In this document: one piece after another, positions 6,225 to 19,152 of the stretch
How positions within the stretch are numbered: the first letter of the stretch is position 1
How the letters are laid out: every line of letters begins with the position of its first letter
Source: an uncultured Dehalococcoidia bacterium
Lineage (GTDB): Bacteria; Chloroflexota; Dehalococcoidia; SM23-28-2
Direction of reading: 5' to 3'
Assembly (NCBI GenBank): GCA_964638905.1
Contig: CAZXAF010000001.1
Span: forward strand, 1 to 30,049
DNA: 30,049 nucleotides
Translations under genes and position numbers: made by a program
Notes under the pieces: model-generated
Databases searched by the model: none
What the model saw: the letters and a program-made list of their open reading frames with translations, nothing else
Told to the model about the DNA's origin: nothing

Positions 6225-7328
6225 TTGGACAGCACCACCCGTCTTGAGGACTCCCTTCGGCGAGGCTACGCAGCCGCGCGATCGAGGCGGTCAGCCATTC
6301 GCAAGCTGACCTACGAGCCGCTCATCCGTCGGATCGCCACGGCATTGATGGTCTTCGCGGCCCTGCTGGTGGGTGGCACCGTGGGCTACATGCTCATTGA
6401 GGGCTGGCCTTTTCTTGATGCCCTCTTCATGACGGCGATCACTATCTCCACGGTGGGCTACGGCGAGGTCCGGCCACTGTCGTCCGGGGGAATTGTGTTC
6501 AGCGTCTTCCTCATCCTCTTCGGCGTGGGAGCGGTGCTGTACCTGCTCAATGCCACTGTTCAGACAGTATTCGAGAGCAATCTGGGAGAGGTCCTGGAGG
6601 TACGCAAGATGAAGGCCCGAATCAATGCGCTACGAGACCACTACATCGTGTGCGGCTTTGGCCGGGTGGGCCATGAGGTGGCCCTGGAGTTCCAGGCCCA
6701 GACTACGCCCTTTGTCCTCATCGAGAACGATCCCGAGGCCCAGGAGAAGGCCCGCAGTCTAGGCTATCTCTACGTGGCGGAGAACGCCACGGCCGAGGAG
6801 GCACTGGACGCCGCCGGGGTCAGGCGAGCCCGTTGTCTCATTGCAGCGGTCGGCAGCGACGCGGAAAACACCTACATCACGCTCTGCGCGCGTTCCATGA
6901 ACCCGAAACTGTTCATCGTCGCTCGGGTTGACTCCACTCGAGGCGAGGAGCGTTTGCGTCAGGCCGGTGCCGACAAGGTGATCTCGCCCTATCGCATCGG
7001 CGGCCGGACTATCGCCTTTACGGCGCTTCAGCCGCACGTCAGCGACTTCCTGGACTCGGCAACCGGCGACCGGTGGATCGCTGAGATAGCGGTGAGCGAG
7101 GGCTCAGACCTGGTGGGGATGACCCTTGGTGATTTCCGACACACGCGCGCCGGCGACAACGTGGTGCTGGGACTGCGCGGGCCCAGCGGCCATTTCGTGG
7201 TGGGCCCGTCGGCCCACAGGCGGCTTGCGGTGGGTGATCGCATGCTGGTGCTCGGCAGAGAGAAGGACCTCGCCAGCATGAAGCTGCCGGACGACCATCC
7301 GGCCGCCGACAGGGCGGGCAGCGGCTGA
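6225..7328 (+). CDS. Potassium channel protein, 2TM pore + RCK_N (TrkA_N) + RCK_C (TrkA_C)
   Basis: Selectivity filter TISTVGYGE; HYIVCGFGRVG Rossmann fold; DAENTYITLCARSMNP; C-terminal LVGMTLGD...VVLGLR...LAVGDRMLVLG. TTG start is uncertain. Confidence 0.92.
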   Translation: MDSTTRLEDSLRRGYAAARSRRSAIRKLTYEPLIRRIATALMVFAALLVGGTVGYMLIEGWPFLDALFMTAITISTVGYGEVRPLSSGGIVFSVFLILFGVGAVLYLLNATVQTVFESNLGEVLEVRKMKARINALRDHYIVCGFGRVGHEVALEFQAQTTPFVLIENDPEAQEKARSLGYLYVAENATAEEALDAAGVRRARCLIAAVGSDAENTYITLCARSMNPKLFIVARVDSTRGEERLRQAGADKVISPYRIGGRTIAFTALQPHVSDFLDSATGDRWIAEIAVSEGSDLVGMTLGDFRHTRAGDNVVLGLRGPSGHFVVGPSAHRRLAVGDRMLVLGREKDLASMKLPDDHPAADRAGSG

Positions 7329-7407: not shown

Positions 7408-8655
7408 GTGCTATCCTTCCCCGGCTCTAGACACTGGGTCGCAGCTCTGGTCCTCGGATTGGTCCTCGCGCTGGCGCTGGTCGCCGTGGCCTGCGGCAGC
7501 GAGGAGGAAAAGAAGGACGAGATCAAGGACATCGAGCGAGGGCCGGATACGCCCATCGTCGTTCCAGCCGGCGAGCCGATCATCATCGGCGTGTCGGTGC
7601 CCCTGACCGGGCCCGACGAGACGGTAGGCACCGACGACCTCCATGCTGCGGTCGTAGGCGTAGAGCGCTGGAAGGAAGCGAACGGCACGACGATCGGCGG
7701 GCACGAAATCGAGGTCCGCGCCGAGGACGACGGGTGCTCTGAGCCCCAGATCACCGAACAAGCCGCAGAGCGACTGCTGGGCATCGAGGGGCTAGCGGGG
7801 GTCATCGGCCCCGACTGTAGCGCCGGTGCGGCGGCCGTCATTCCCACCTACGCAGAGGCCGGGCTCGTGATGATCTCCGGCTCCGCGACCAGCACCGACC
7901 TGACACTGGACCAGCCGGAGCCCAGGTTCTTCTTCCGCACGGCTTACACCAACGCCGGCGAGGGCGCCCTGCAGGCCCGCTACGTTGTTGCCGAGCTGGA
8001 CGTGACGACTGCCTATGTGATCGACGACGGCGAGGCTTACGGCGAAGACCTGGCGTATGCGGCACAGGAGGCCCTGGAAGCGACAGGCCACACGGTGACC
8101 CGCGAGAGCATCGTACGGGGAACCGTCGACTTCAGCCAGCTGGTCAGCCGGATAGCCGCCGACAACCCCGGCGTCGTGATCTTCGAAGGGTTCAATCCGG
8201 AGGCCGCGCTCCTCCACCGTCAGCTTGAGGACGCCGAATACAGCGGCCCGTTTGTCTCCAGCGATGCCGCAGCGTCGGTATCGGACTTCATCGCGCCTCT
8301 GGGCGAGCTAGCCGAGGGCGCGGTCTTCGCCGGTTGCCTGCGCGATCTGCCCGAGGAATTCCTGGCCGACTACATCGACATCGTCGGGAGCGAGCCCACA
8401 ACGCCTTTCCCGGCGCAGTACGCCGACGCCGCCACCATCCTCCTCGATGCCGTTGCGGAGGTCGCCCAGGAGCAGCCAGACGGATCGCTGGTGATCAACC
8501 CCCTGGAGCTGCGCGACGCCGTGAGCGCACCGAAGCTGCTGGCCGGCGTTTCCGGCACCATCGCCTTCGATGAGAACGGAGATCGCCTCGCTGAGAGCTC
8601 AGGCCTTGTGATGTGCGAGGTGCAGGATGGCGAGTTCGTTAGAATCCGATTCTAG
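7408..8655 (+). CDS. Branched-chain amino acid ABC transporter substrate-binding lipoprotein (LivJ/LivK-like)
   Basis: Lipobox LVAVAC; IIIGVSVPLTG, EDDGC, VIGPDCS, MISGSAT, FFRTA, YGEDLA, GVSGTIAFDENGDR. Confidence 0.88.
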   Translation: MLSFPGSRHWVAALVLGLVLALALVAVACGSEEEKKDEIKDIERGPDTPIVVPAGEPIIIGVSVPLTGPDETVGTDDLHAAVVGVERWKEANGTTIGGHEIEVRAEDDGCSEPQITEQAAERLLGIEGLAGVIGPDCSAGAAAVIPTYAEAGLVMISGSATSTDLTLDQPEPRFFFRTAYTNAGEGALQARYVVAELDVTTAYVIDDGEAYGEDLAYAAQEALEATGHTVTRESIVRGTVDFSQLVSRIAADNPGVVIFEGFNPEAALLHRQLEDAEYSGPFVSSDAAASVSDFIAPLGELAEGAVFAGCLRDLPEEFLADYIDIVGSEPTTPFPAQYADAATILLDAVAEVAQEQPDGSLVINPLELRDAVSAPKLLAGVSGTIAFDENGDRLAESSGLVMCEVQDGEFVRIRF

Positions 8656-8666
8656 GGATTAGGCAG

Positions 8667-11009
8667 ATGACATCATCCCATCCTCGTGGAGCGCGGTCCT
8701 TCACCGCCCGTATCGCCATGTGGAGCGCCCGCCACCGGAAAGCTGTGGCGCTTGCCTGGGTGATCATCGTCGTCGCTGCTCTGGGCGCCTGCAGCACCAT
8801 CGAGCCCGACACCAGCGTTGAGGGAGAGGCGCCCGGCGAGTCCGGAGAGGCCCAAGCTCTCATCGAAGAGAGGTTCCCGGCAGATCAGGAGATGCCCCAG
8901 GAGTTCGTTGTCTTCTCCCACCCTTCCCTCAGCGTGGACGACCCCGAGTATCGCGAGACGGTCGAAGGGCTTCTGGGGGAGCTTAGCACGCTACGAGTGA
9001 GGAAAACGGAGGTCATCGGCGGTACCACAGTGGTCCGCAGCAGCCGGATCGTGGCCGGGACGCTCAGCCACTACGACATCGGTCTGCCGCGGCAAGCGTC
9101 GCCCTTCGTCGCCCAGAACGCGACGGGCGGCGACGTCACCTTCGCTATAGTCACGCTCGAAGGGAACCTCGACGAGGCGATAGCCAACATCGACCCGCTC
9201 CTGGCCACCGTCGATCGAGCCAAGGAGGAGGCCGAAGGGTTTGAGATCAACATCGGCGGCACGGCCTCCCTCACCAAGCAACTGACGGAGATCATCGACG
9301 AGGACTTCGGTAGCGCCAGCACCCTGAACCTGCCCATTACCCTCGCGATCCTTGTCCTCGCCTTCGGTACTCTGGTCGCCGCTGTCGTGCCGATAGTCCT
9401 TGCCTTTGTGGGCGTGTTCGTCGCCCTGGGAGCCCTGACCGTCATCAGCCTGGCCTATCCCCTGGCAGACGTCTATACGCAGGTCGTGCTGCTGATCGGG
9501 CTGGCCACCGGTATCGACTACTCCCTGTTCGTCATCACCCGCTACCGGAGCGAGCGCCGAGCCGGCCTCTCCAAAGAGGAGGCCCTGCGCGTGGCCACGG
9601 GCACCTCCGGCAAGGCGATCTTCTTCGCCGGCGCCACCACCGTATTCGCCGTGGCCGGCATGTTCCTGGTCGGCGACCCGATCTTCAGCAGCCTGGGTCT
9701 CGCCTCCATCGTTATCGTCGTCTTTGCCATAAGCATGGCCATGACCCTCCTGCCGGCGATCATCGCCATGCTCGGCGACAACATAGAGCGGCTGCGCGTA
9801 CCGCTGCTCGGTCGCCCTGCCGAAGAGACCGGGGGAGTGTGGGGGGTCATCTTCGACCGCGTGCTGGCCTGGCCTGTCATCCCCGCCGTAGTTACCGTGG
9901 CCGTTCTGATCGCCATCTCCGCTCCGGGCCTCAACTTCAACCTCGGCTTCAACGGGCCCAGGAGCTTCCCCGAGGACGCGGAAGGCACCAGGGCGCTCAT
10001 AGCTCTAGAAGAGAGCTTCACCCTGGGGCTGGTCTCGCCGGCGGTGGTAGTTGTGGACGCCGGAGAGAAGCAGAACGTCTTCGCTGCGGACATTCAGGAG
10101 TCCGTTTCGGAGCTGCTGAGCCTGGTCGGGGCAGATACCGTGTCGCCCGACAAACCCGAGGCCCTCTACGGGCCGGCGGCCCAAGCGCCCGAGTTCAGCG
10201 ACGCCGGCGACACGGAGCAACTGTTCATCCCCGTGAACGGCGACTCCGGCGAGGACCGGGCCATCGACGCCGTCAATAACCTGCGCGACAAGCTCGTTCC
10301 TGCCGCCTTTGAAGCCAGCCCCGCCGATGCCCTGGTCACCGGCGCTACCGCCGCCAACATAGACTTCCGGGACAAGATCGAGGCTCGAACCCCCATCGTC
10401 TTTGCCTTCGTTTTGGGGCTCGCCTTTATCACCCTCCTCCTCACCTTCAGGTCGCTCGTTATTGCCATCACAGCCATCGTCCTCAACCTCTTCTCCGTCT
10501 TCGCCGCCTACGGCCTCCTCGTGCTCGTCTTCCAGGAAGGCTGGCTGCTGGAGGGCGTACTCGATTTCAAAGCCACGGGCATTATCGAGTCCTGGCTGCC
10601 TCTCTTCCTGTTCTCTCTCCTGTTCGGCCTCTCCATTGACTACGAGATGTTCATCATGGGCCGGATCAAAGAGAGATACGAGCGAGGGGCCAGCACCACT
10701 GAGGCTATCGCCATGGGCGTCAAGAGCAGCGCGCGGGTGATCACCAACGCTGCGGCCATCATGGTCGCAGTCGCCGCCATCTTCACCTTCACGCGGAGCA
10801 TTGCCCTCAAGCAGTTCGGCTTTGGTCTGGCCACCGCCATCTTCATCGATGCCACGATCATCCGCACCTTCCTGTTGCCGACTACCATGAAGCTGCTCGG
10901 CGAGTGGAACTGGTACCTGCCGTCCTGGCTCGAGTGGCTGCCCACACTGCCGATGGCCGAAGAGAGCAGCCCGATGCCTGCGAAGGGCACAGCCAGCGAC
11001 GCCCCCTAG
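8667..11009 (+). CDS. MMPL family transporter
   Basis: Two membrane repeats with GLATGIDYSLFVITRYRSER and FGLSIDYEMFIMGRIKERY; ITNAAAIM; IDATIIRTFLLP...LLGEWNWYLP. Confidence 0.93.
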   Translation: MTSSHPRGARSFTARIAMWSARHRKAVALAWVIIVVAALGACSTIEPDTSVEGEAPGESGEAQALIEERFPADQEMPQEFVVFSHPSLSVDDPEYRETVEGLLGELSTLRVRKTEVIGGTTVVRSSRIVAGTLSHYDIGLPRQASPFVAQNATGGDVTFAIVTLEGNLDEAIANIDPLLATVDRAKEEAEGFEINIGGTASLTKQLTEIIDEDFGSASTLNLPITLAILVLAFGTLVAAVVPIVLAFVGVFVALGALTVISLAYPLADVYTQVVLLIGLATGIDYSLFVITRYRSERRAGLSKEEALRVATGTSGKAIFFAGATTVFAVAGMFLVGDPIFSSLGLASIVIVVFAISMAMTLLPAIIAMLGDNIERLRVPLLGRPAEETGGVWGVIFDRVLAWPVIPAVVTVAVLIAISAPGLNFNLGFNGPRSFPEDAEGTRALIALEESFTLGLVSPAVVVVDAGEKQNVFAADIQESVSELLSLVGADTVSPDKPEALYGPAAQAPEFSDAGDTEQLFIPVNGDSGEDRAIDAVNNLRDKLVPAAFEASPADALVTGATAANIDFRDKIEARTPIVFAFVLGLAFITLLLTFRSLVIAITAIVLNLFSVFAAYGLLVLVFQEGWLLEGVLDFKATGIIESWLPLFLFSLLFGLSIDYEMFIMGRIKERYERGASTTEAIAMGVKSSARVITNAAAIMVAVAAIFTFTRSIALKQFGFGLATAIFIDATIIRTFLLPTTMKLLGEWNWYLPSWLEWLPTLPMAEESSPMPAKGTASDAP

Positions 11010-11064: not shown

Positions 11065-11092
11065 TTGACATTCGCGTTATTGGTGTTAGAAT
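11065..11092 (+). promoter_or_regulatory. Sigma70-type promoter P1
   Basis: TTGACA (11065-70), 16-bp spacer, TAGAAT (11087-92) with a TGn extension; ~12 nt upstream of riboswitch 1. Confidence 0.8.
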
Positions 11093-11104
11093 AAGATATA
11101 GATG

Positions 11105-11224
11105 TGATCGCCAAATCCCCCTCGGGGGAGCGGGTGAACGAAGCAGGCGGTGAGTCTCGCCTCGGCGAGTAGGGCAAGCCTTTCAGCCCGAACCGGCAGC
11201 TAAGCCCGTAGGCGTTAGAAAGGC
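11105..11224 (+). ncRNA. c-di-AMP riboswitch (ydaO/yuaA family), divergent copy
   Basis: Order of elements matches the ydaO motif: ATCGCCAAATC, stem TCCCCC/GGGGGA, GAGCGGG-GAAC, GGTGAGTC, stem CTCGCC/GGCGAG, GTAGGGCAA, CCTTTC, GCCCGAACC-GCAGCTAA-CCCGTAGGC, then GAAAGG pairing with CCTTTC. Several core positions deviate. Confidence 0.78.
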
Positions 11225-11256
11225 CTCACACTCCAAAGGGAGCGGGGTCTTTTTTG
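11221..11256 (+). terminator. Riboswitch-linked intrinsic terminator
   Basis: Imperfect stem AGGCCTC-ACA-CTCC / GGAG-C-GGGGTCT followed by a T run; its 5' arm overlaps the aptamer's 3' end. Confidence 0.6.
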
Positions 11257-11285
11257 ATCCCCCTTTCGAACGCTGAGGTGCTCTA

Positions 11286-12611
11286 ATGGTACAGGTTGCT
11301 TCACACGTCGACCGCCAGGAAAGCTCACGAACGGACTCCACCACCCTGCCCCCTTCACCCGAAGTGCGCGCCGATGACGTCCTGGTCGGCGGCTCCAACT
11401 CTGCTTTCCCCCTTCCGGTAAAGCTTTGCCTGGAGAGAGGCGCCGGAAGCCGCGTTTGGGACACGAACGGCCGAGAGTACATGGACTTCCTCCTTGCCTC
11501 CGGCCCTATGATCCTGGGCCATGCCCACCCTCGGGTCTGCGAGGCCGTTGCCCGCCAACTGTCCAACGGTACCGCCTTCCACACGCTGAACCGTCCGGCC
11601 CTGGAGCTTGCAGGTCGCCTGGTGGACATCCCCGGCTGCGTGGAGACGGTCCGGTTCGCTTCTACCGGCACAGAGGCGGTGATGCACGCAGTGCGACTGG
11701 CGCGCGCCTACACTGGCCGCGACAAGGTGCTCATCTTCGCCGGCTCATACCACGGCAGCCACGACCTGTCGATCATCGGCTACCGCGGGGCAATAAGGGC
11801 CGAAAGCGGTGGGGTGCCCCGCAGCGCCGTGGGGGACGCGGTCATCGCCAGGTTCAATGATATCGACAGCGTGGAGGCCAGCTTCGCCGCCCACGGCAGC
11901 TCCCTGGCGGCCGTCCTCATCGAGCCCCAGCAACGTTCCCTCGACCCGCTACCGGAGTTCCTGCCGCGCCTGGCTCAGCTATGCCGCTCCGCCGGTGTCC
12001 TACTGATATTCGATGAAGTCCTGACCGGCTTCCGCCTGGCATTCGGCGGCGCCCAGGAATACTACGGCGTAGAGCCCGACCTGGTGTGTTACGGCAAGAT
12101 CCTGGGAGGCGGCTTCCCCCTGTCGGCGGTTGGCGGCCGTCGCCAGATCATGCGCCTGGCCGATCCTGCGCTGCAACCCGCCCCCAACTTCGTTCACATC
12201 AGCGGCACGCTGAGCGGCAACCCGGTCTCGGCGGTAGCCGGGCTGGCAACCCTCGCCGAGCTGGAGAAACCAGGCGTGTACGCCCACCTGCACGGGTTGG
12301 GAGAGCGACTTCGCGGCGGCCTGGCGTGGCAACTGAATACCCACGGCATCGAAGGCTCTGTAATAGGCAGCGGCCCGATCGCCGCCGTCAGGTTCTCGGA
12401 CTCCGATCAGCCGGGATCCGGTCTGGCCCTCAGAGAGGCCGTGAACCGGGAGCTGATCCTCGGGGGCGTGCTTGCCCAGTTGCAGACCAGGTTCTACATC
12501 TCGCTCGTTCACACGGAGGCAGAGATCGACTTTGCGGTCGACGCCTTCGGCGGCGCGCTCCGAGCGGCGATTGAGCGCACATCCTCCGCCGAAGGTATCC
12601 CGGCGGTGTGA
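11286..12611 (+). CDS. Class III PLP aminotransferase, glutamate-1-semialdehyde aminomutase (HemL)-like paralog
   Basis: GSRVWDTNGREYMDF, ILGHAHP, VRFASTGTEA, YHGSHD, LIFDEVLTGFR, PLP lysine in YGKILGGGFPL, SGTLSGNP. GAGGTG RBS upstream. Confidence 0.9.
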   Translation: MVQVASHVDRQESSRTDSTTLPPSPEVRADDVLVGGSNSAFPLPVKLCLERGAGSRVWDTNGREYMDFLLASGPMILGHAHPRVCEAVARQLSNGTAFHTLNRPALELAGRLVDIPGCVETVRFASTGTEAVMHAVRLARAYTGRDKVLIFAGSYHGSHDLSIIGYRGAIRAESGGVPRSAVGDAVIARFNDIDSVEASFAAHGSSLAAVLIEPQQRSLDPLPEFLPRLAQLCRSAGVLLIFDEVLTGFRLAFGGAQEYYGVEPDLVCYGKILGGGFPLSAVGGRRQIMRLADPALQPAPNFVHISGTLSGNPVSAVAGLATLAELEKPGVYAHLHGLGERLRGGLAWQLNTHGIEGSVIGSGPIAAVRFSDSDQPGSGLALREAVNRELILGGVLAQLQTRFYISLVHTEAEIDFAVDAFGGALRAAIERTSSAEGIPAV

Positions 12612-12669
12612 GCGAGGGGCGGCACCGGCAAACAAGAAGTGTACAGGACATAAAGAACCGTACACAGAC

Positions 12670-12698
12670 TTGTCAAACGCCATTCGACACGTTATAAT
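12670..12698 (+). promoter_or_regulatory. Sigma70-type promoter P2
   Basis: TTGTCA (12670-75), 17-bp spacer, TATAAT (12693-98); ~12 nt upstream of riboswitch 2. Confidence 0.85.
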
Positions 12699-12709
12699 AC
12701 AAGAAAGAG

Positions 12710-12843
12710 AATACGGCCGAACTCCGGCGCACGTCGCCGGGGACGGGGGAACCAACCCACTGGGGTGAATCTCCGAATCGTTCGGAGTAGGCAATCTCCC
12801 TTGACCGAACCCGTCAGCTAACCCCGTAGGCACCAGGGAGAGG
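12710..12843 (+). ncRNA. c-di-AMP riboswitch (ydaO/yuaA family), canonical copy
   Basis: GGCCGAAC, stem CTCCGGCG/CGCCGGGG, GACGGGGGAACC, TGGGGTGAATC, stem CTCCGAA/TTCGGAG, GTAGG, CCGAACCCGTCAGCTAACCCCGTAGGC. GACGGG (12742-47) pairs with CCCGTC (12810-15), and TCTCCCT (12795-801) with AGGGAGA (12835-41). Confidence 0.95.
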
Positions 12844-12857
12844 GTAGCCAGTGCATG

Positions 12858-12890
12858 AAAGACCCGAGGCTACGCCTCGGGTCTTTTTCT
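12858..12890 (+). terminator. Intrinsic terminator in the kamA-like leader (riboswitch expression platform)
   Basis: Perfect stem AAAGACCCGAGGC-TAC-GCCTCGGGTCTTT followed by TTCT, between the aptamer and the RBS. Confidence 0.88.
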
Positions 12891-12937
12891 ATCTGCGCGC
12901 GAATGGCTGAGCTCTCACTCCCAACGGCGAAGGAGGT

Positions 12938-14434
12938 ATGATGATGGCGAGGCAGTGGCAGCACGCTGCCGCGAGAGCCGCCAGCGAGTTCAGAGGCCGC
13001 ACGCATTTGGGGCCGATGGAAGTGAGGTTTCCCGCGCTGCCGCCAACGGGCCGCGAGGCCGTTGGAGCAGAGCGTGCGGGGTCTCCTCGGACTTTTTCGG
13101 CAGGCTCTCAAGGCGGCCCGAAGTACCGCGCCTACAGAGTCCACAATTTCCGCGATCTCTCACAGCTTCAGTTGCTATCTTCTGAGGAGCAATTCGCCAT
13201 CGAGGTCGTCGCCCAGGTTCTGCCTTTCAAGACCAACAGCTACGTCGTCGAGGAGCTCATCAACTGGGATGACGTCCCCCAGGACCCGATGTTCGTGCTG
13301 AACTTCCCGCAGCGCGAGATGCTCCTCCCCCACCATTTCAAGGAGATGGCAGCCCTTCTGCGCAGAGGTGCGGACAAGGAAGAGATCGAGCGGGCGGCCA
13401 ACCGAATCCGCCTTCAGCTCAACCCCCATCCGGCCGGGCAGTGGGACCACAACGTCCCCACCCTCGGCGATACCAGGCTGACCGGCATGCAACACAAGTA
13501 CGCGGAGACGGTGCTCTTCTTCCCCAGCGACGGCCAGACGTGTCACGCCTATTGCACGTTCTGCTTCCGCTGGCCCCAGTTCGTTGGGATAGACGAACTG
13601 AAGTTCGCTATGCGGGAGACAGAGCTGCTGGTCGAGTACGTGCGCGTCCACCCGGAGGTGACCGACGTGCTGTTTACCGGCGGCGACCCCATGACCATGT
13701 GCATGCGCAAACTGGTGTCGTACATCGACCCCCTTCTGGAGGCACGCCTCCCCAACCTGCGCACGATACGCATTGGCACCAAGGCCCTCAGCTATTGGCC
13801 GTATCGCTTCCTCACCAACGATGACGCCGACGACCTGCTCGACCTGTTTAGGCGAGTCACCAGCGCCGGCATCCACCTGTCGATCATGGCCCACTTCAAC
13901 CACCCCCGTGAGCTGAGCACCGACGCCGTCAAAGAGGCGATCGCCCGCATCAGGGAGACCGGCGCGGAGATCAGGACGCAGTCGCCGCTGCTGCGGAACA
14001 TCAACGACCGCCCCGAGATCTGGAGCGAGATGTGGCAGCAGCAGGTGGAGCTCGGCTGCATCCCCTACTACATGTTCGTCGCCCGTGACACCGGAGCGCA
14101 GCACTACTTCAGCGTACCGCTGGTGCGAGCCTGGGAGATCTTCCAGGACGCCTACCAGCGCGTAAGCGGCCTCGCCCGCACCGTCCGGGGGCCGATCATG
14201 TCCGCCGACCCCGGCAAAGTGGAGATAGTCGGCGTGACGAAGGCCGGCGGCAAGAAGGTCATTGCCCTGCGAATGCTCCAGGGCCGCAACCCGGACTGGG
14301 CAATGCGCCCCTTCTTCGCAAAGTACGACCCGAAGGCCACCTGGCTAAGCGACCTCCGACCGGCCTTCGGCGAGAAGCGCTTCTTCTTCGAAGAGGAGCT
14401 GGAGCGGCGATACCACGGCCGCAAGGCCCGCTGA
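12938..14434 (+). CDS. kamA: KamA-family radical SAM protein (lysine 2,3-aminomutase-like; substrate uncertain)
   Basis: CxxxCxxC as CHAYCTFC; HKYAETVLFF; DVLFTGGDP; IRIGTK; AHFNHPREL; QSPLLRNIND; PYYMFVARDTG; probable PLP lysine in MSADPGKV. AAGGAGGT RBS precedes ATGATGATG, so the exact start is 12938, 12941 or 12944. Confidence 0.9.
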   Translation: MMMARQWQHAAARAASEFRGRTHLGPMEVRFPALPPTGREAVGAERAGSPRTFSAGSQGGPKYRAYRVHNFRDLSQLQLLSSEEQFAIEVVAQVLPFKTNSYVVEELINWDDVPQDPMFVLNFPQREMLLPHHFKEMAALLRRGADKEEIERAANRIRLQLNPHPAGQWDHNVPTLGDTRLTGMQHKYAETVLFFPSDGQTCHAYCTFCFRWPQFVGIDELKFAMRETELLVEYVRVHPEVTDVLFTGGDPMTMCMRKLVSYIDPLLEARLPNLRTIRIGTKALSYWPYRFLTNDDADDLLDLFRRVTSAGIHLSIMAHFNHPRELSTDAVKEAIARIRETGAEIRTQSPLLRNINDRPEIWSEMWQQQVELGCIPYYMFVARDTGAQHYFSVPLVRAWEIFQDAYQRVSGLARTVRGPIMSADPGKVEIVGVTKAGGKKVIALRMLQGRNPDWAMRPFFAKYDPKATWLSDLRPAFGEKRFFFEEELERRYHGRKAR

Positions 14435-14747
14435 CACGCTCGATATGCTGAAGGCTGCCGGGCGGCTGGCGTCTCACCGAGGACACTGGCCGCCCGCACT
14501 CATTTGGGTGAACCCAGGTCTCTCCACCACCCACTTATCCCCCCAAAGCTACCAGATACGGATAAGGCACTAGCCCCTCGCAGAAGTCACTCAGACGCTG
14601 AATCCCTGTGGATTTTTCCCCTCTCGTGTCAATCGGCTGTAACAGATAGCCCGCCCAATAGTCTTAACTTTGGGGCATAGTTATGTTAATCGGGCGCGTC
14701 GAGCGGAGTGCTCGCACCCTCGATATTGGATTACTTACGAAAGGCGA

Positions 14748-16601
14748 ATGTCGATGAAGCTGGCAAGGCTTCTTCCGCTTTCTCTAACGTTCCTACTCGT
14801 CTCCTGCTTCTCGGCGCAGGCTAATAATGCTACGTCTGGGATGACTTATGGAGCCCCGGATGAGCCCCTGCGGCCGCAGGCACAGGAAGCTCTCGGCGTG
14901 AGGCAAGAGACAGCGCCAGTCACCACTGGCCAGTTCGTCCCGGGAGAAGTGATCGTCAAGTTCAAGCCGGGCATGTCCGGGGCATTTAGAGCAGCTACCG
15001 TAGCTACCGAAGGAGCGTCTGTACTGGGCGACCTCCTCATGCCAGGCTATACCCTCGTTCGCGTGCCGACAGGCCAGGAGGGGGAGATCCTCGCCCGGCT
15101 GCAAGCGAACCCCTGGGTGGAACTGACGGAGCGAAACGTGGTCAGGCAGGTGACCTTTACACCGAATGACCCCTACTACTCTTACCAGTGGGACATGCCC
15201 CAGATCCAGATGCAACAGGCCTGGGACGTCGCCAACGGGTCGGGGGTGGTGGTGGCGATAATCGACACCGGCGTGGCCTACGAGAACTACGGTAGCTTCG
15301 CCCGCGCTCCCGACCTGGCCGGCACGTCGTTCACAGCCGGCTATGACTTCGTGAACAGCGACAGCCACCCCAACGATGACAACGGGCATGGCACCCACGT
15401 GGCCGGGACCATTGCTCAGACCACCAACAACAGCCTGGGTGTGACTGGCGTAGCCCATGGCGCCACCATCATGCCCATAAAGGTCTGCAATAATCTGGGC
15501 TCCTGCCCGATTTCCGCCATAGTCAACGGCCTCACCTGGGCCACGGACCATGGGGCCGATGTCATCAACCTCAGCCTGGGAGGCCCCTACTCGCCGTCGG
15601 AGGAGTCAGCGATCAACTATGCATTGAACCACGGCGTGGTGGTGGTTGCCTCGGCCGGCAACGACGGCACTTCAACCCTGAATTGCCCGGCCTGCCACCC
15701 CGGCGTCATCGCCGTGGCGGCCACTGACTACAACCGAAACCTTTCGTATTACTCAACTTACGGATGCGGCAGAGGAGGCCACTGTCTGGACGTGGTCGCC
15801 CCCGGCGGAGACACCTCGGCGGATGAGAATAACGACGGCTACGCTGACGGCGTACTTCAGCAGACGTTCGAAGACACCTGCGATGGCATCGAGCCCCCCG
15901 TTGACCTCGCGAGCTTTGTCTACTGCTTCTTCCAGGGCACCTCTATGGCCTCCCCCCACGTGGCCGGCGCTGCAGCCCTCCTCCTCGACGCCAACCCCAC
16001 CCTCACGCGCCAGCAGGTAGGGGACTGCCTGAGAAACACCGCCCTGGATCGGGGAGCGCCAGGCTATGACACCACCTATGGTTATGGCCTCATCCAGGTC
16101 AGGAATGCCCTGAACTCCTGCGGCCAGTCGACACCGACGCCTACGCCGACGCCGACGCCCACACCGACACCCACGCCTACACCCACGCCGACACCCACGC
16201 CGACGCCCACGCCGACACCCACGCCGACACCCACGCCGACGCCTACGCCCACACCCACGCCGACGCCTACACCGACGCCTACACCGACACCCACGCCTAC
16301 ACCGACACCGAGTTGCAACCCTGACGTCGACACCGACGGCGATGCCTATGATGACGACATCGAGTGCTACATCGGCACCGACTCTCTTGACGACTGCCCC
16401 GACGATCCCAGCGACGACGCCTGGCCGCCGGACGTAAACATCGACACCTCAGTCAACATCATCGACATTCTCCTCTACAAGGGGAGGCTACCGCCCAACC
16501 CCTATGACTGCCGCTACGACCTCAATGCCGATGGCAAAGTGAACATCCTTGACGTGCTCCAGTACAAGTGGTTCATCGGGATGTCCTGCACGAACCCATA
16601 G
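14748..16601 (+). CDS. Secreted S8 (subtilisin-like) serine peptidase with (TP)30 linker and C-terminal dockerin/EF-hand-like domain
   Basis: ATG at 14748 follows GAAAGG; signal peptide; propeptide GEVIVKFK; catalytic triad IIDTGV / GHGTHVAG / [11 protein letters not shown]; oxyanion-hole AGN; C-terminal paired D-x-N-x-D loops. Confidence 0.9.
16131..16310 (+). repeat. Hexanucleotide tandem repeat encoding (Thr-Pro)30
   Basis: 180 nt of ACNCCN units in frame with the peptidase; third codon positions vary. Confidence 0.97.
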
Positions 16602-16625
16602 GGAAGCCCCGGCCAACGCTCGCGC

Positions 16626-16654
16626 GAGGGTGCCCCGACGGGCACCCTCCGTTT
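16626..16654 (+). terminator. Intrinsic terminator after S8 peptidase
   Basis: GAGGGTGCCC-CGAC-GGGCACCCTC followed by CGTTT. Confidence 0.7.
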
Positions 16655-16676
16655 GCTGCCCCTTTGTGTCCCTGCC

Positions 16677-16704
16677 TTGACAACCACGCCTGAACGGCTA
16701 TGGT
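16677..16704 (+). promoter_or_regulatory. Putative sigma70 promoter for the CAP-GH5 gene
   Basis: TTGACA, 16 bp, TATGGT; GGAAGGAG RBS at 16741-48. Confidence 0.55.
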
Positions 16705-16752
16705 AGTACAGGTAGCCGGTCTTGCTCTCCAAGCACAGCTGGAAGGAGTCCG

Positions 16753-19152
16753 ATGGCCCACCCTGGCCGGCGTGAACGAACACTCGTCTTAGTAGCCACC
16801 GCCCTGGCGTTTGCCGCCTTCTTAGTGGGGCTGGGAATCTCCCCCCCGCTGAGTGCTTCTCCCCCCGATATGGCATCTTCCCAATCGCTGCTGGGGCCGG
16901 AAGAGCAGGCTCTCGTAGACCTGATCAACGCCTATCGGCTGGAGAAAGGCATATCGCCCCTGATTGTTTCGCCAACCTTGACCCACGCTGCTCGATGGAT
17001 GAGCCAGGACATGGCTGGAAACGGATACATGAACCATACCGACTCTCTGGGGCGGGACTTCCGCCAGCGGCTGGCAGACTTCGGCTACGACTACAACACC
17101 TACATCGGCGAAGACCTGGCGAGAGCCAATGATAATTACCAGACCACATTCCTGCTCTGGCAGAGCAGCCCTGGCCACGAGGCCAACATGCTCAGTCCCA
17201 ACTACCGCGTTATCGGCGTCAGCCGCACCCACGACGGTATCTCCAGCTATGGCTGGTACTGGGTTGCTGACTTCGGCGGATATGACGATAGCGGCGTCCC
17301 GCCGCTGCTGACCATCGAGCCGGCACCCACGCCCACACCTATACCTACACCTACACCTACGCCCACTCCTATCCCAACGCCTACACCCCCACCCACCCTC
17401 ACGCCAGAATCGGAGAGCCATGTCCTCCCCTGGACCACCGGCCCCGCCTCATCTCACATGGAGGACGACACCCTCCACAATTGCCCTCAGCCAGGCAGTT
17501 GGGCAATTTCCGTCTGGAACGGCGCCGATAGCACTGAGACCGGTGAGGTACTAGACACCTGCGGTGAGGGGAATGTGGACTTCGCATACTACATCGACCC
17601 GGATACCCAGGACTGGCTGCACTACTTCGTCGGCCTCACAGAGTTCAGCGATCTTCCGGCGGTGGACAATGGGCAGGCGGTCATCACCCACGGCGCAGCA
17701 GGTGTCCCGCCGCCTACCCCAACAAGCCCCGACGTCGGGCCCGTGGCCGATAAGTGGACGCTGTGGACGGAAGGCACTCGCCTGCGGGGCGCCAACATCT
17801 ACCAGCGCCGCGTGTACCCCGAGCTGGACGACAGCTCGATGGGAACCGGCCCTGTCGGCCCCCCCTACACGCAAGAGGACTTCGACCGGCTGGCGGCGCT
17901 AGGCGCCAACTACGTCAATATCTCGCACCCCGGCCTGTTCAGCGAGACCCCGCCCTACACCCTGGATCAGGGCATCCAGGACAACCTGGACAGCCTGCTG
18001 GACATGATCGCCGAAGCCGACATGTTCGCCGTGATCAGCTTCCGCACCGGCCCGGGCCGCAGCGAGTTCACTTTCTTCCACGACGAGGTCGGCACCTGGT
18101 TCGATGACAGCTATCTCAATGACTCCGTGTGGCAAGACCAGGCAGCGCAGGATGCTTGGGTGGCCATGTGGCGCCAGACGGCGGAACGCTACCGCAACAA
18201 CCCGATCGTTGCCGGCTACGACCTGATGGTCGAGCCGAACGCCAACGACGTCTGGCTGGACATCTGGGAGCCGGAGGAGTTCTATCCGACCTATGCCAAC
18301 ACGCTGTACGACTGGAACCAGCTCCACCCCCGCATCACCACCGCCATCCGCGAGGTGGACGCCGACACGCCCATCCTGATCGGCGGCATGAGCTATAGCG
18401 CCGTCGAGTGGCTGCCTTACCTCCAGCCGAACGCAGACACCCGCACCGTCTACACAGCGCACCAATACCAGCCGTTTCAATACACGCACCAAACGCCTCC
18501 CCTGGAACACACCTACCCGGGGGTGTTCGACACAGACTGGGACGGCATCGACGACGAGGTCGACCGCGCCTGGCTGGAGGGCCTGCTGTCCGCGGTTGGT
18601 ACGTTCGCGTCAGCACACAGCGCTCCGATGGCGATCAATGAATTCGGCGTCATGCGCTGGGAGCCTGGCGCCGCCGACTTCATGGACGACCAGATGGACC
18701 TCTTCGAGGACCTGGGCATGAACCACGCGCTGTGGCTGTGGGAAGCGTCGTGGGAACCGCGAGCGGCAATGGACGATGGCTTCAACTTCCTTCACGGCCC
18801 GGACCCTGACCACCACACCGACGTATCATCGAGCGACCTGATCGACGTCATCGTTCAGTACTGGGGACGCAATACGATACGGCCATCGAACTTCAGCGAG
18901 GAGGCAACCGCTCAGGGAACCCTGCACAACTGTCCCCAGCCGGGCAAGTGGGTGCTATCCGTCTGGACCGGCGCTGATGGCACTGACATCAGCGAGGCCG
19001 TCGCCAGTTGCACGGAGGCAACGGTGGCAGCCGCCTACTGGGTCGACCCCCAGTGCCAGGAGTGGAAGCACTACTTCAGCGCGCTGCCCGAGATCACCAC
19101 TCTGAAGACCCTGGACTGGATGCAGGCAGTCATCACCCTCGGCAAGAAGTGA
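16753..19152 (+). CDS. Secreted multidomain protein: CAP/SCP domain - Pro/Thr linker - module A - GH5-like catalytic domain - module A'
   Basis: CAP motifs LVDLINAYR, MNHTDSLG, IGEDLA, WQSSPGHEANML, IGVS, YWVADFG. GH5-like LRGANI, GANYVNI, GYDLMVEPN, YTAHQY, INEFG. Two 75-aa TLHNCPQPG modules. Confidence 0.8.
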   Translation: MAHPGRRERTLVLVATALAFAAFLVGLGISPPLSASPPDMASSQSLLGPEEQALVDLINAYRLEKGISPLIVSPTLTHAARWMSQDMAGNGYMNHTDSLGRDFRQRLADFGYDYNTYIGEDLARANDNYQTTFLLWQSSPGHEANMLSPNYRVIGVSRTHDGISSYGWYWVADFGGYDDSGVPPLLTIEPAPTPTPIPTPTPTPTPIPTPTPPPTLTPESESHVLPWTTGPASSHMEDDTLHNCPQPGSWAISVWNGADSTETGEVLDTCGEGNVDFAYYIDPDTQDWLHYFVGLTEFSDLPAVDNGQAVITHGAAGVPPPTPTSPDVGPVADKWTLWTEGTRLRGANIYQRRVYPELDDSSMGTGPVGPPYTQEDFDRLAALGANYVNISHPGLFSETPPYTLDQGIQDNLDSLLDMIAEADMFAVISFRTGPGRSEFTFFHDEVGTWFDDSYLNDSVWQDQAAQDAWVAMWRQTAERYRNNPIVAGYDLMVEPNANDVWLDIWEPEEFYPTYANTLYDWNQLHPRITTAIREVDADTPILIGGMSYSAVEWLPYLQPNADTRTVYTAHQYQPFQYTHQTPPLEHTYPGVFDTDWDGIDDEVDRAWLEGLLSAVGTFASAHSAPMAINEFGVMRWEPGAADFMDDQMDLFEDLGMNHALWLWEASWEPRAAMDDGFNFLHGPDPDHHTDVSSSDLIDVIVQYWGRNTIRPSNFSEEATAQGTLHNCPQPGKWVLSVWTGADGTDISEAVASCTEATVAAAYWVDPQCQEWKHYFSALPEITTLKTLDWMQAVITLGKK
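17320..17406 (+). repeat. Pro/Thr low-complexity linker
   Basis: Encodes [29 protein letters not shown]. Confidence 0.9.
17470..19143 (+). repeat. Intragenic duplicated 225-nt module (17470-17694 and 18919-19143)
   Basis: TLHNCPQPGSWAISVWNGAD...C...AYYIDPDTQDWLHYF...QAVITHG versus TLHNCPQPGKWVLSVWTGAD...C...AYWVDPQCQEWKHYF...QAVITLG; equal length. Confidence 0.9.

What the first reader, a model, noticed from the sequence alone, without database searches (positions are those of the whole stretch)
11065..14434. Two adjacent enzymes, each with its own c-di-AMP riboswitch: candidate undescribed beta-amino-acid/osmolyte pathway
Seen in sequence: the cassette promoter > ydaO-type aptamer > terminator > RBS > gene occurs twice in a row, first for a HemL-like class III aminotransferase and then for a KamA-family radical-SAM 2,3-aminomutase. 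Established: ydaO riboswitches bind c-di-AMP and usually shut off K+/osmolyte genes. Lysine 2,3-aminomutase makes the osmolyte N-epsilon-acetyl-beta-lysine together with the acetyltransferase AblB, and in B. subtilis kamA shares an operon with the class III aminotransferase yodT. Inference: there is no acetyltransferase in this window, so aminomutase plus aminotransferase may make or recycle a different beta-amino compound (beta-lysine, beta-arginine, beta-glutamate or a derivative) when c-di-AMP is low. kamA-riboswitch links may already appear in comparative surveys; the paired, doubly switched module in a probable Chloroflexota genome is the unusual part.
Basis: partly seen in the sequence, partly recalled or inferred. 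Interest (0 to 1): 0.88.

Follow-up and report, generated by a model that had tools for sequence, protein, structure and literature searches.

The report
Twin c-di-AMP switches on enzyme pair
Two neighbouring genes of an uncultured Dehalococcoidia bacterium, a radical-SAM aminomutase of an unstudied but very widespread clade and a HemL-derived transaminase, each carry their own c-di-AMP riboswitch, and this double control is kept in relatives through several gene rearrangements, which points to an uncharacterised beta-amino-acid (probably beta-glutamate) module tied to potassium and osmotic balance.

Summary
Two full-length RF00379 (c-di-AMP) aptamers lie at 11099-11229 and 12705-12847. Each has a near-consensus promoter, an intrinsic terminator and an SD. 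The first precedes a class III aminotransferase and the second a KamA-family radical-SAM gene.

Neither enzyme reaches any curated equivalog cut-off.
- The KamA-like protein belongs to a huge clade (at least 597 species, bacteria and archaea, 62-81% identical). It has an invariant Arg where lysine 2,3-aminomutase has the lysine-binding Asp293. It is the only KamA-family gene in Nitrosopumilales, whose cultured member N. maritimus holds 730 mM beta-glutamate. Glutamate is therefore the likeliest substrate.
- The aminotransferase is a HemL paralog rebuilt as a transaminase. Its orthologs were found only in genomes that also hold the KamA-like gene. In four relatives it is translationally coupled to a Cys-less CMD-fold protein.

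In 10 of 11 loci the aminotransferase has its own riboswitch, and the loci show four gene arrangements. The aminotransferase-linked aptamers form one lineage, separate from the KamA-linked ones.

Function is inferred, not shown. This scan had already noted the riboswitch-KamA link and the beta-glutamate idea on other DNA. The separately switched transaminase (with CMD) partner is the new part. I class it as a new variant of a known kind.

The parts
11065..11092 (+). Promoter 1 (TTGACA, 16 nt spacer, TG-TAGAAT)
   Evidence: Promoter scan, 11 of 12 consensus matches with an extended -10 TG.
11099..11229 (+). c-di-AMP riboswitch aptamer 1 (aminotransferase-linked subtype)
   Evidence: RF00379 at 68.8 bits, E 3.4e-14, full model. 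It clusters with 9 other aminotransferase-leader aptamers. Its departures from the consensus are compensatory pair swaps.
11222..11255 (+). Intrinsic terminator 1: an imperfect hairpin (GGCCUC..CUCC / GGAG..GGGGUC) followed by U6
   Evidence: Read from the sequence. The homologous hairpin plus U-tract in six orthologous leaders is clean and carries compensatory changes. The window copy has two mismatches, so it is weaker.
11275..11280 (+). Shine-Dalgarno GAGGTG for the aminotransferase
   Evidence: Sequence read, 5 nt before ATG 11286.
11286..12611 (+). HemL-paralog class III aminotransferase (441 aa)
   Evidence: PF00202 at E 1e-57. All NCBIfam HemL models score below cut-off. HemL Arg32 is deleted, and EPQQR and QTRFY motifs are gained. 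A true HemL sits elsewhere in a relative.
12670..12698 (+). Promoter 2 (TTGTCA, 17 nt spacer, TATAAT)
   Evidence: Promoter scan, 11 of 12 consensus matches.
12705..12847 (+). c-di-AMP riboswitch aptamer 2 (KamA-linked subtype)
   Evidence: RF00379 at 90.7 bits, E 2.8e-20, full model. It clusters with the KamA-leader aptamers of relatives.
12858..12888 (+). Intrinsic terminator 2 (13-14 bp GC-rich hairpin, UAC loop, U5)
   Evidence: RNA fold, centroid structure. It is conserved in relatives. The tail after the pseudoknot can pair with the terminator's 5' arm and loop, and this pairing covaries between genomes.
12938..14434 (+). KamA-family radical SAM/PLP aminomutase of an uncharacterised clade (498 aa). 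The true start may be the third ATG, at 12944
   Evidence: TIGR00238 at 122 bits, below the 199 cut-off. Aligns to LAM 2A5H at E 8e-23. C202/C206/C209, R211, GGD248-250, R383 and K427 are invariant in 82 of 82 clade members.

Best explanation
The region holds two independent transcription units. Each consists of a sigma-70-type promoter, a c-di-AMP (ydaO-class) aptamer, an intrinsic terminator, an SD and a gene. By analogy with every tested member of this riboswitch class, bound c-di-AMP favours the terminator, so both genes would be read through only when c-di-AMP is low, which is the signal of low potassium or low turgor. This step is inferred.

Gene 2 encodes a radical-SAM/PLP 2,3-aminomutase of a large, very conserved and biochemically unstudied KamA clade. 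An Arg sits at the position where lysine 2,3-aminomutase holds the lysine epsilon-amino group with Asp293. This predicts an acidic substrate, most likely L-glutamate converted to beta-glutamate, an anionic solute that pairs with K+. This step is also inferred.

Gene 1 encodes a HemL paralog converted into an ordinary transaminase. It works on the same amino-acid pool. My preferred reading is that it transaminates the beta-amino acid (beta-glutamate to 3-oxoglutarate). That product then loses CO2, helped in relatives by the coupled CMD-fold protein. The module would then set the size of the glutamate/beta-glutamate pool when c-di-AMP falls. The alternative, that the transaminase feeds glutamate to the mutase, is nearly as likely.

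Rough odds:
- Riboswitches genuine: 0.95.
- The two genes form one functional module: 0.65.
- Substrate is glutamate: 0.55.
- Transaminase acts after rather than before the mutase: 0.55 to 0.45.
For: Riboswitches:
- Two full-length RF00379 hits, with promoters and terminators.
- Over 29 related aptamers, 96% of cells are paired and 18 of 28 pairs show compensatory changes. Slid controls reach at most 53%.
- The own genome has a DAC cyclase and six RF00379 copies.

Conserved double control. The aminotransferase ortholog has its own aptamer in 10 of 11 loci, spread over four arrangements:
- Aminotransferase then KamA-like gene: the window and CP070630.1.
- KamA-like gene then aminotransferase: a same-genus genome.
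- Divergent: L014, L017, L136, L137, L138.
- Apart: L101, where the two genes lie about 70 kb apart and each has its aptamer, and L131, whose genome was not held.
The aminotransferase-linked aptamers form one clade. Mean identity is 0.71 within that clade and 0.53 to the KamA-linked aptamers.

Aminomutase:
- The HMMER alignment to 2A5H puts R211 on LAM R134 and R383 on LAM D293. R383 is invariant in 82 of 82 members.
- The clade is the only KamA-family gene in five Nitrosopumilales genomes. N. maritimus holds 730 mM beta-glutamate (PMC8269262).
- Neighbours elsewhere are MscS, glutamine synthetase, a Na+/H+ exchanger and an AspAT-like gene.

Transaminase:
- A true HemL exists separately in a relative.
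- The HemL 'PVR' Arg32 is deleted, and a C-terminal Arg typical of transaminases is gained.
- The GSAM-like subgroup includes beta- and gamma-amino-acid transaminases such as Chloroflexota StoTA 6K8H.
- It is coupled to a CMD-fold protein by a 4-nt overlap or a 3-nt gap in L014, L017, L137 and L138, with a remnant in the same-genus genome.

Precedents:
- c-di-AMP and Na+ riboswitches on ablA, and Na+ riboswitches on eam (PMC9337991).
- A glutamate 2,3-aminomutase next to a PLP enzyme that acts on beta-glutamate, IdnL4/IdnL3 (PMC11284099, PMC11350588).
Against: - No enzyme of this KamA clade, and no ortholog of this transaminase, has been assayed. Substrate and direction are inferred from one residue and from gene context.
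- A 51%-identical relative is fused to a Lys/Orn-type N-monooxygenase in a natural-product-like cluster. This would fit a basic substrate, or shows that the clade is not uniform.
- Most KamA-bearing Dehalococcoidia lack the transaminase, and one ortholog (L100) has no riboswitch. The link is therefore not obligatory.
- Switching on a maker and a consumer of the same solute together is physiologically odd if beta-glutamate is meant to accumulate.
- The transaminase lacks the Arg that binds the substrate carboxylate in GSAM and in beta-transaminases.
- The CMD protein is absent from this genome and from CP070630.1.
- The OFF polarity of the switches was not derived here. The terminator of leader 1 in the window is degenerate.
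Confidence: 0.45

Rival explanations
1. Pure osmolyte synthesis with the transaminase as feeder. The HemL-derived enzyme makes L-glutamate from 2-oxoglutarate. Where the CMD protein is present, it decarboxylates the spent keto acid of the amino donor and pulls the equilibrium. The aminomutase then turns the glutamate into beta-glutamate, which accumulates with K+ when c-di-AMP is low.
For: - Co-induction of two consecutive biosynthetic steps under the low-c-di-AMP signal is the simplest regulatory logic.
- In 16 of 80 loci from other phyla an aspartate-aminotransferase-like gene directly follows the KamA-like gene.
- The transaminase has regained the C-terminal Arg that binds alpha-keto and alpha-amino acids.
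- c-di-AMP and Na+ riboswitches are known on genes that make beta-amino-acid osmolytes.
Against: - Cells already make glutamate in bulk, so a transaminase adds no net nitrogen.
- Class III, GSAM-like enzymes normally act on non-alpha amines.
- Most lineages run the KamA-like gene without any dedicated transaminase.
- No CMD-family enzyme is known to do such a job.
Confidence: 0.25
2. The two genes are two unrelated members of the c-di-AMP regulon that happen to lie near each other. Each answers to c-di-AMP for its own reason, and they share no pathway.
For: - Each gene has its own promoter, aptamer lineage and terminator.
- The two genes are about 70 kb apart in one complete genome.
- The own genome has four further riboswitches before unrelated genes: a zinc-ribbon protein, a VTT/DedA protein and a MarR plus RND pair.
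- The KamA-like gene mostly occurs without the transaminase.
Against: - The two genes are adjacent in 9 of 11 transaminase loci, in three different orientations. This is hard to explain without selection for linkage.
- Every transaminase-bearing genome that could be searched also holds the KamA-like gene.
Confidence: 0.15
3. One reading: the aminomutase acts on a basic amino acid (lysine, arginine or ornithine). The transaminase then processes the beta-lysine-type product, as in the Bacillus subtilis kamA-yodT operon.
For: - The protein is in the KamA family, and LAM is its best solved relative.
- A class III aminotransferase shares the kamA operon in B. subtilis (own knowledge, not tested here).
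- A 51%-identical relative is fused to a Lys/Orn-type N-monooxygenase.
Against: - LAM Asp293 is an invariant Arg here.
- The position nearest LAM Asp330 is variable across the clade.
- The AblA, EpmB and arginine-mutase equivalog models all score far below their cut-offs.
- No AblB is found in the genome.
- The clade sits in Nitrosopumilales, where the dominant solute reported for N. maritimus is beta-glutamate, not beta-lysine.
Confidence: 0.1

Closest known systems
c-di-AMP riboswitch, ydaO/yuaA class (Rfam RF00379)
   Same: Both leaders match the full model well above the gathering score. They keep the conserved GAAUC, CCGAAC and GCUAA elements and the pseudoknot tail, and each is followed by an intrinsic terminator, the usual OFF design.
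   Different: The aminotransferase-linked aptamers are a distinct sub-lineage. At two pairs that are G-C in every other aptamer compared, they carry G-C to C-G swaps, and they have a one-base shorter ACCCG element. An aminotransferase is not, to my knowledge, a listed target of this class. Ligand binding was not tested.
Tandem Na+ / c-di-AMP riboswitch on ablA of Dehalobacter sp. CF (White et al. 2022, PMC9337991)
   Same: A c-di-AMP riboswitch with its own terminator gates a KamA-family 2,3-aminomutase gene linked to a beta-amino-acid osmolyte.
   Different: In Dehalobacter, two different riboswitches sit in series on one gene that encodes a bona fide lysine 2,3-aminomutase. Here, two c-di-AMP riboswitches sit on two separate genes, the mutase belongs to another clade, and no Na+ riboswitch is found.
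Lysine 2,3-aminomutase KamA/AblA (Clostridium subterminale LAM, PDB 2A5H)
   Same: Shares the CxxxCxxC cluster motif, the GGD SAM motif, the Arg that binds the alpha-carboxylate (R134 = R211) and a PLP lysine in a PGK motif (K427).
   Different: Only 84 bits to 2A5H. Asp293 is replaced by Arg. There is no LAM_C domain and none of its zinc cysteines. An extra 40-aa insert lies in the N-terminal domain, and the C-terminal domain is different and conserved. The AblA model scores 116 bits against a cut-off of 525.
Glutamate 2,3-aminomutases: Eam of Clostridioides difficile (TIGR04368) and the methanogen enzyme of Tunckanat et al. 2022
   Same: The residue at the LAM Asp293 position is basic, as reported for Eam (Lys; own knowledge). 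The context is osmotic, as for the methanogen enzyme.
   Different: TIGR04368 scores 97 bits against a cut-off of 650, so this is not an Eam ortholog. The methanogen enzyme is described as having a 160-aa N-terminal extension (from memory of the abstract). Its sequence and the paper were not available here, so its relation to this clade is untested.
Glutamate-1-semialdehyde 2,1-aminomutase HemL and the GSAM-like beta/gamma-amino-acid transaminases (e.g. Sphaerobacter StoTA, PDB 6K8H)
   Same: Class III fold. The PLP lysine (YGKILGGG), the DEVxTGFR Asp and the SGTLSGNP motif are kept. Best PDB hits are GSAMs at 250 bits, and StoTA gives 227 bits over the full length.
   Different: It lacks the carboxylate-binding Arg (GSAM R32, StoTA R36), has a shorter gating loop, and has EPQQR in place of the EP...N motif. 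GSAM Glu406 is replaced by a QTRFY Arg. It scores below every HemL cut-off.
IdnL4/IdnL3 of incednine biosynthesis, and the Bacillus subtilis kamA-yodT operon
   Same: In each case a KamA-family aminomutase is paired with a PLP enzyme that acts on the beta-amino acid it makes (the yodT operon is from own knowledge).
   Different: IdnL4/IdnL3 belong to secondary metabolism and the B. subtilis operon to sporulation. Neither has a riboswitch. IdnL3 is a decarboxylase, and no homology of either partner to the present pair was tested.

Membership tests
c-di-AMP riboswitch (RF00379) | Covariance-model score at or above the curated gathering score, over the full model | tested here: met
   90.7 and 68.8 bits against a gathering score of 38. 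Both cover model positions 1-134 of 134.
c-di-AMP riboswitch (RF00379) | Helices supported by compensatory changes in relatives | tested here: met
   29 related aptamers: 96.3% of cells are paired, 18 of 28 pairs change on both sides, 0 of 500 shuffles reach this, and slid controls reach at most 53%. The alignment was fitted to the model, so the counts lean towards it.
c-di-AMP riboswitch (RF00379) | Binds c-di-AMP and switches expression | not testable with these tools
   Needs in-line probing or ITC, and transcription termination assays. A DAC cyclase is present in the genome.
KamA family radical SAM/PLP aminomutases | CxxxCxxC cluster, SAM-binding GGD motif, PLP-binding lysine | tested here: met
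   C202/C206/C209, GGD248-250 and K427 are invariant in 82 of 82 clade members.
KamA family radical SAM/PLP aminomutases | NCBIfam TIGR00238 subfamily cut-off (199.2 bits) | tested here: not met
   122.1 bits. The protein is homologous but lies outside the curated subfamily boundary.
Lysine 2,3-aminomutase (AblA/KamA proper) | Asp293 and Asp330 bind the lysine epsilon-amino group; the LAM_C zinc domain is present; the equivalog cut-off is reached | tested here: not met
   R383 aligns with Asp293. The position near Asp330 is variable. There is no PF12544 hit. TIGR03820 scores 116 bits against a cut-off of 525. The residue roles come from the LAM structure literature (own knowledge).
Lysine 2,3-aminomutase (AblA/KamA proper) | Partner AblB acetyltransferase in the genome | tested here: not met
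   TIGR03827 gives only a 21.8-bit generic GNAT hit against a cut-off of 205. The genome is 69% complete.
Glutamate 2,3-aminomutase (Eam, TIGR04368) | Equivalog cut-off of 650 bits | tested here: not met
   97.2 bits.
Glutamate 2,3-aminomutase (Eam, TIGR04368) | Basic residue in place of LAM Asp293 | tested here: met
   Arg383 is invariant. That Eam has Lys at this position is own knowledge. The source paper was not held.
HemL (glutamate-1-semialdehyde 2,1-aminomutase) | Equivalog cut-off, and the substrate-carboxylate Arg in the GGVxSPVRAF motif | tested here: not met
   TIGR00713 scores 318 bits against a cut-off of 527. The motif reads GGSNS---AFPLP, with the Arg deleted. A true HemL scoring 540 bits lies elsewhere in a relative that also has this paralog.
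Class III aminotransferases (PF00202) | Pfam gathering score and the PLP lysine | tested here: met
   196 bits against a gathering score of 30.5. The YGKILGGG lysine is conserved.

The most novel reading that the evidence does not exclude
The riboswitch pair marks an undescribed three-enzyme route: a glutamate 2,3-aminomutase of a new clade, a beta-glutamate transaminase derived from HemL, and a CMD-fold 3-oxoglutarate decarboxylase. The route converts glutamate through beta-glutamate to acetoacetate, or yields a new beta-amino solute. It is switched on when c-di-AMP falls, which would tie the second messenger directly to the size of the cell's glutamate/K+ counter-ion pool. In addition, the aminotransferase-linked aptamers would be a separate functional subclass of the c-di-AMP riboswitch.
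Probability: 0.2. Interest if true: 0.75.

Novelty: new variant of a known kind. Interest (0 to 1): 0.55.

Why it matters
c-di-AMP is the main bacterial signal for potassium and turgor. Its riboswitch regulon is known mostly for transporters and cell-wall enzymes.

This case shows the riboswitch gating two metabolic enzymes of unknown function through two separately inherited copies. That is a strong regulatory hint to what the enzymes do.

The aminomutase clade is present at over 60% identity in at least 597 species. These include marine ammonia-oxidising archaea, where the origin of their dominant solute, beta-glutamate, is unassigned to my knowledge. Assigning its activity would fill a real gap in the osmolyte and marine metabolite literature.

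The HemL-derived transaminase and its CMD partner would add either a new way of making or trimming a beta-amino-acid pool, or a new glutamate degradation route. One set of enzyme assays would settle all of this.

Tried and rejected
- True HemL: rejected for the aminotransferase. It scores below the cut-offs, Arg32 is deleted, and a separate HemL exists in a relative.
- AblA/AblB acetyl-beta-lysine pathway: rejected. The model scores are too low, Asp293 is Arg, and no AblB was found.
- Position 424 (D in Chloroflexota, N in some others) as a specificity determinant: rejected. It takes 12 different residues across the clade.
- Recent local duplication of one riboswitch: rejected. The two aptamer types are separate lineages across genomes.
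- Translational control only for leader 1: set aside once the orthologous leaders showed a conserved terminator.
- Link to the methanogen glutamate 2,3-aminomutase: not achieved. The paper was not held. Cluster look-ups of long-form relatives gave no methanogen names. The 608-aa relative lies on a bacterial-looking contig.
- Ruzicka and Frey 2007 was not held.
- A CMD gene next to a 51%-identical paralog of the transaminase (L144) is only 29% identical to the coupled CMD. I treat it as weak evidence.
- The ESM Atlas search gave only generic KamA labels.

Full report
**1. Observation**

An Rfam scan of the whole window at gathering threshold returns only two hits, both to RF00379, the c-di-AMP (ydaO/yuaA) riboswitch. 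One lies at 12705-12847 (90.7 bits, E 2.8e-20) and the other at 11099-11229 (68.8 bits, E 3.4e-14). Both are on the + strand, cover the full model, and score above the gathering score of 38.

Each aptamer is preceded by a promoter-like site matching 11 of 12 consensus positions, at 11065-11092 and 12670-12698. The scan found 3 sites against 0.7 expected by chance.

Leader 2 carries a textbook terminator at 12858-12888. The terminator of leader 1 was missed by the scan tool. It is an imperfect hairpin at 11222-11249 followed by U6. In six orthologous leaders the same element is a clean hairpin plus U-tract, with compensatory differences between genomes. It is therefore real, but somewhat degraded in this genome.

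SD sequences precede both start codons. The KamA-like ORF starts with three consecutive ATGs, and the spacing to the SD favours the third.

**2. The genes**

ORF 11286-12611 (441 aa) is a class III aminotransferase (PF00202). Its best curated matches are HemL models, and all of them score below cut-off.

ORF 12938-14434 (498 aa) is a KamA-family radical SAM protein. It scores below the cut-off of every curated KamA subfamily: general KamA, AblA, EpmB, and the glutamate and arginine mutases.

No large ORF of the window has an acetyltransferase domain.

The genome is a 1.9 Mb MAG, 69% complete. It has a DAC cyclase, six RF00379 copies and no AblB. Its nearest relatives are Dehalococcoidia MAGs.

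**3. The aminomutase clade**

The protein belongs to a very large and tightly conserved family. The genome collection gave at least 597 species-level hits. The best 80 are 62-81% identical and span many groups:
- Chloroflexota
- Nitrosopumilales and other Thaumarchaeota
- Thermoplasmatota
- Bacteroidota
- Ignavibacteria
- Proteobacteria
- Nitrospirae
- Aquificota
- Verrucomicrobiota

Several residues are invariant in 82 of 82 sequences:
- the CxxxCxxC cysteines;
- the GGD motif;
- R211, aligned to LAM Arg134;
- K427, in a PGK motif at the place of the LAM PLP lysine;
- R383.

The HMMER alignment to LAM (2A5H) places R383 on Asp293. From the LAM literature (own knowledge), Asp293 is one of the two carboxylates that hold the lysine epsilon-ammonium group. 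In the Clostridioides glutamate 2,3-aminomutase that position is Lys (own knowledge). The charge reversal therefore points to an acidic substrate. Among acidic amino acids, aspartate would only regenerate itself, so glutamate is the obvious candidate.

The position nearest LAM Asp330 is variable and carries no information.

The LAM_C zinc domain is absent. It is replaced by a different conserved C-terminal domain.

Independent context supports an osmotic role and a C5 amino acid:
- In five Nitrosopumilales genomes this clade is the only real KamA-family gene.
- N. maritimus contains 730 mM beta-glutamate (PMC8269262).
- Recurrent neighbours are an MscS channel (14 loci), glutamine synthetase (7 loci), a Na+/H+ exchanger (6 loci) and, in 16 loci from other phyla, an aspartate-aminotransferase-like gene directly downstream.

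Earlier notes of this scan had already proposed beta-glutamate for this clade on other DNA. I re-derived the main points myself, but the activity remains untested.

One caveat stands. A 51%-identical relative is fused to a Lys/Orn-type N-monooxygenase, in a cluster with an ATP-grasp ligase and a FemAB-like protein. The fusion was seen on two independent contigs.

**4. The transaminase**

A complete relative genome has both a true HemL (540 bits, above the cut-off) and this paralog behind a riboswitch.

Against true HemL, the paralog clade shows these changes:
- a three-residue deletion that removes the substrate-carboxylate Arg (HemL GGVSSPVRAF becomes GGSNS-AFPLP);
- a shorter gating loop;
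- EPQQR in place of the EP...N motif;
- QTRFY in place of the SQFEA motif, so that GSAM Glu406 is lost and an Arg typical of keto-acid-binding transaminases appears.

It is therefore an intermolecular transaminase, not an aminomutase.

Its structural relatives include the beta- and gamma-amino-acid transaminase of the Chloroflexota species Sphaerobacter thermophilus (6K8H, 227 bits over the full length).

In four relatives (L014, L017, L137, L138) the gene is joined, by a 4-nt overlap or a 3-nt gap, to a 120-132 aa CMD-fold protein. That protein has no cysteines and has a conserved ExHxxAH motif, so it resembles the decarboxylase branch of the family more than the AhpD branch.

A 40-residue remnant of this gene follows the transaminase in the same-genus genome. 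Nothing is left of it in the window, in the rest of this genome, or in CP070630.1.

**5. Conservation of the double control**

I built a covariance model from eight local aptamers and scanned all fetched loci with it.

A riboswitch precedes the KamA-like gene only in Chloroflexota, and there in many lineages.

Orthologs of the transaminase (62% identity or more) are much rarer. In an even sample of the class, 2 of 201 genomes have the transaminase and 23 of 201 have the KamA-like gene.

Of 11 transaminase loci examined, 10 have their own aptamer directly upstream. The exception is L100. Every transaminase-bearing genome that could be searched also has the KamA-like gene.

The arrangements differ:
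- Transaminase then mutase: the window and CP070630.1.
- Mutase then transaminase: the same-genus genome.
- Divergent with two back-to-back riboswitches: five loci.
- About 70 kb apart, each with its own riboswitch: one complete genome.

A tree and identity matrix of 34 aptamers put all transaminase-linked aptamers in one clade. Mean identity is 0.71 within that clade and 0.53 to the mutase-linked ones. Each gene has therefore travelled with its own switch. The window does not show a recent duplication.

The transaminase-linked subtype departs from the consensus at positions that are normally invariant. These departures are G-C to C-G swaps of paired positions.

Over 29 aptamers, 96% of cells pair and 18 of 28 pairs show changes on both sides.

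**6. Mechanism**

Shown:
- There are two separate promoter-aptamer-terminator-gene units.
- The aptamers belong to the c-di-AMP class.
- The double control is conserved through rearrangements.
- Every transaminase-bearing genome searched also has the mutase gene.

Inferred:
- c-di-AMP binding favours termination, so both genes are expressed at low c-di-AMP. In the mutase leader, the tail that follows the pseudoknot can pair with the terminator's 5' arm and loop, and this pairing covaries between genomes. That fits an antiterminator which is released when the aptamer is empty.
- The mutase makes beta-glutamate.
- The transaminase works on the same pool.

Two readings of the transaminase remain open. 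It may consume beta-glutamate, giving 3-oxoglutarate. That product decarboxylates easily, which would explain why the CMD partner is dispensable. Or it may feed glutamate to the mutase.

The logic of co-induction favours the second. Enzyme assays would decide.

**7. Comparison and novelty**

Control of a KamA-family gene by a c-di-AMP riboswitch is published for ablA in Dehalobacter. The same paper reports Na+ riboswitches on eam (PMC9337991). The riboswitches themselves are ordinary members of their class. This scan has already met the riboswitch-KamA-like link and the beta-glutamate idea elsewhere.

Three things are new here:
- a second, separately switched enzyme, a HemL-derived transaminase with a CMD partner in relatives;
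- the finding that the two switches are distinct, co-inherited lineages kept through four gene arrangements;
- the recurring pairing of this mutase clade with non-homologous aminotransferases across phyla.

I rate it a new variant of a known kind, with moderate interest. The biochemical claims are untested.

**8. Limits**

- The two key enzymology papers were not held. Statements on LAM and Eam residues and on the methanogen enzyme therefore rest on my own knowledge.
- MAG incompleteness limits all statements of absence.

Noticed in passing
window 6225-7328 (and 7408-11009): A K+ channel with RCK domains (Ion_trans_2 + TrkA_N + TrkA_C) lies 4 kb upstream of the first riboswitch. It is followed by a periplasmic binding protein and an MMPL/RND transporter. 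RCK_C domains are known c-di-AMP receptors, so the neighbourhood may be a potassium/osmotic island.
   Followed up: no
L142:6001-8649 and L143:774-3422: An 882-aa fusion of a Lys/Orn-type N-monooxygenase (PF13434) with a KamA-like domain 51% identical to the window protein. It sits on two independent contigs, next to a cupin, an ATP-grasp ligase and a FemAB-like protein. This looks like a natural-product cluster that uses the same mutase clade.
   Followed up: partly
L029:5330-6679, L008:6490-7803 and 14 further loci: In Bacteroidota, Ignavibacteria, some Proteobacteria and a Thermoplasmatota MAG, an aspartate-aminotransferase-like class I/II gene lies directly beside the KamA-like gene. It is a non-homologous counterpart of the class III partner seen in Dehalococcoidia.
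   Followed up: partly
L014:3518-3901, L017:2760-3122, L137:3750-4148, L138:3969-4328; remnant at L099:9946-10065: A Cys-less CMD-fold protein (PF02627, PcaC-like, conserved ExHxxAH) is translationally coupled to the transaminase in relatives. It has decayed to a 40-residue remnant in the same-genus genome and is gone from this one.
   Followed up: yes
window 11099-11229 and nine orthologous leaders: The aminotransferase-linked aptamers form a subtype. GGGGGA becomes GGGCGA or GGGUGA, CUAACC becomes CUAAGC, ACCCGUC is shortened to ACCGAU, and GUGAAUC often becomes GUGAGUC. The paired changes are compensatory. Whether ligand affinity or specificity differs is unknown.
   Followed up: partly
own genome contigs C114, C80, C33, C68 (L001, L002, L004, L005): The four other c-di-AMP riboswitches of this genome precede a small zinc-ribbon protein, small proteins with no family match, a VTT/DedA-family membrane protein, and a MarR regulator with an AcrB-type RND pump. 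None precedes a classical K+ importer in the 69% of the genome that is assembled.
   Followed up: partly
L131:1-6300: In one complete genome the riboswitch-transaminase unit lies right after a block with a terminase, a serine recombinase and an AAA_25 protein, and before a phage-type integrase. This suggests that the unit borders or sits in a mobile element.
   Followed up: no
window 14670-19152 and 3658-5016: Secreted enzymes flank the module: an S8 subtilase with a dockerin domain, a GH5 cellulase fused to a CAP domain, and a further glycoside hydrolase. Another first-stage note reports a 75-aa module repeated on the hydrolases.
   Followed up: no
window 12938-12946: The KamA-like ORF begins with three consecutive ATG codons. 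The SD (12932-12936) is only 1 nt from the first and 7 nt from the third. The first 60 residues are conserved only among close relatives and absent from most of the clade.
   Followed up: no
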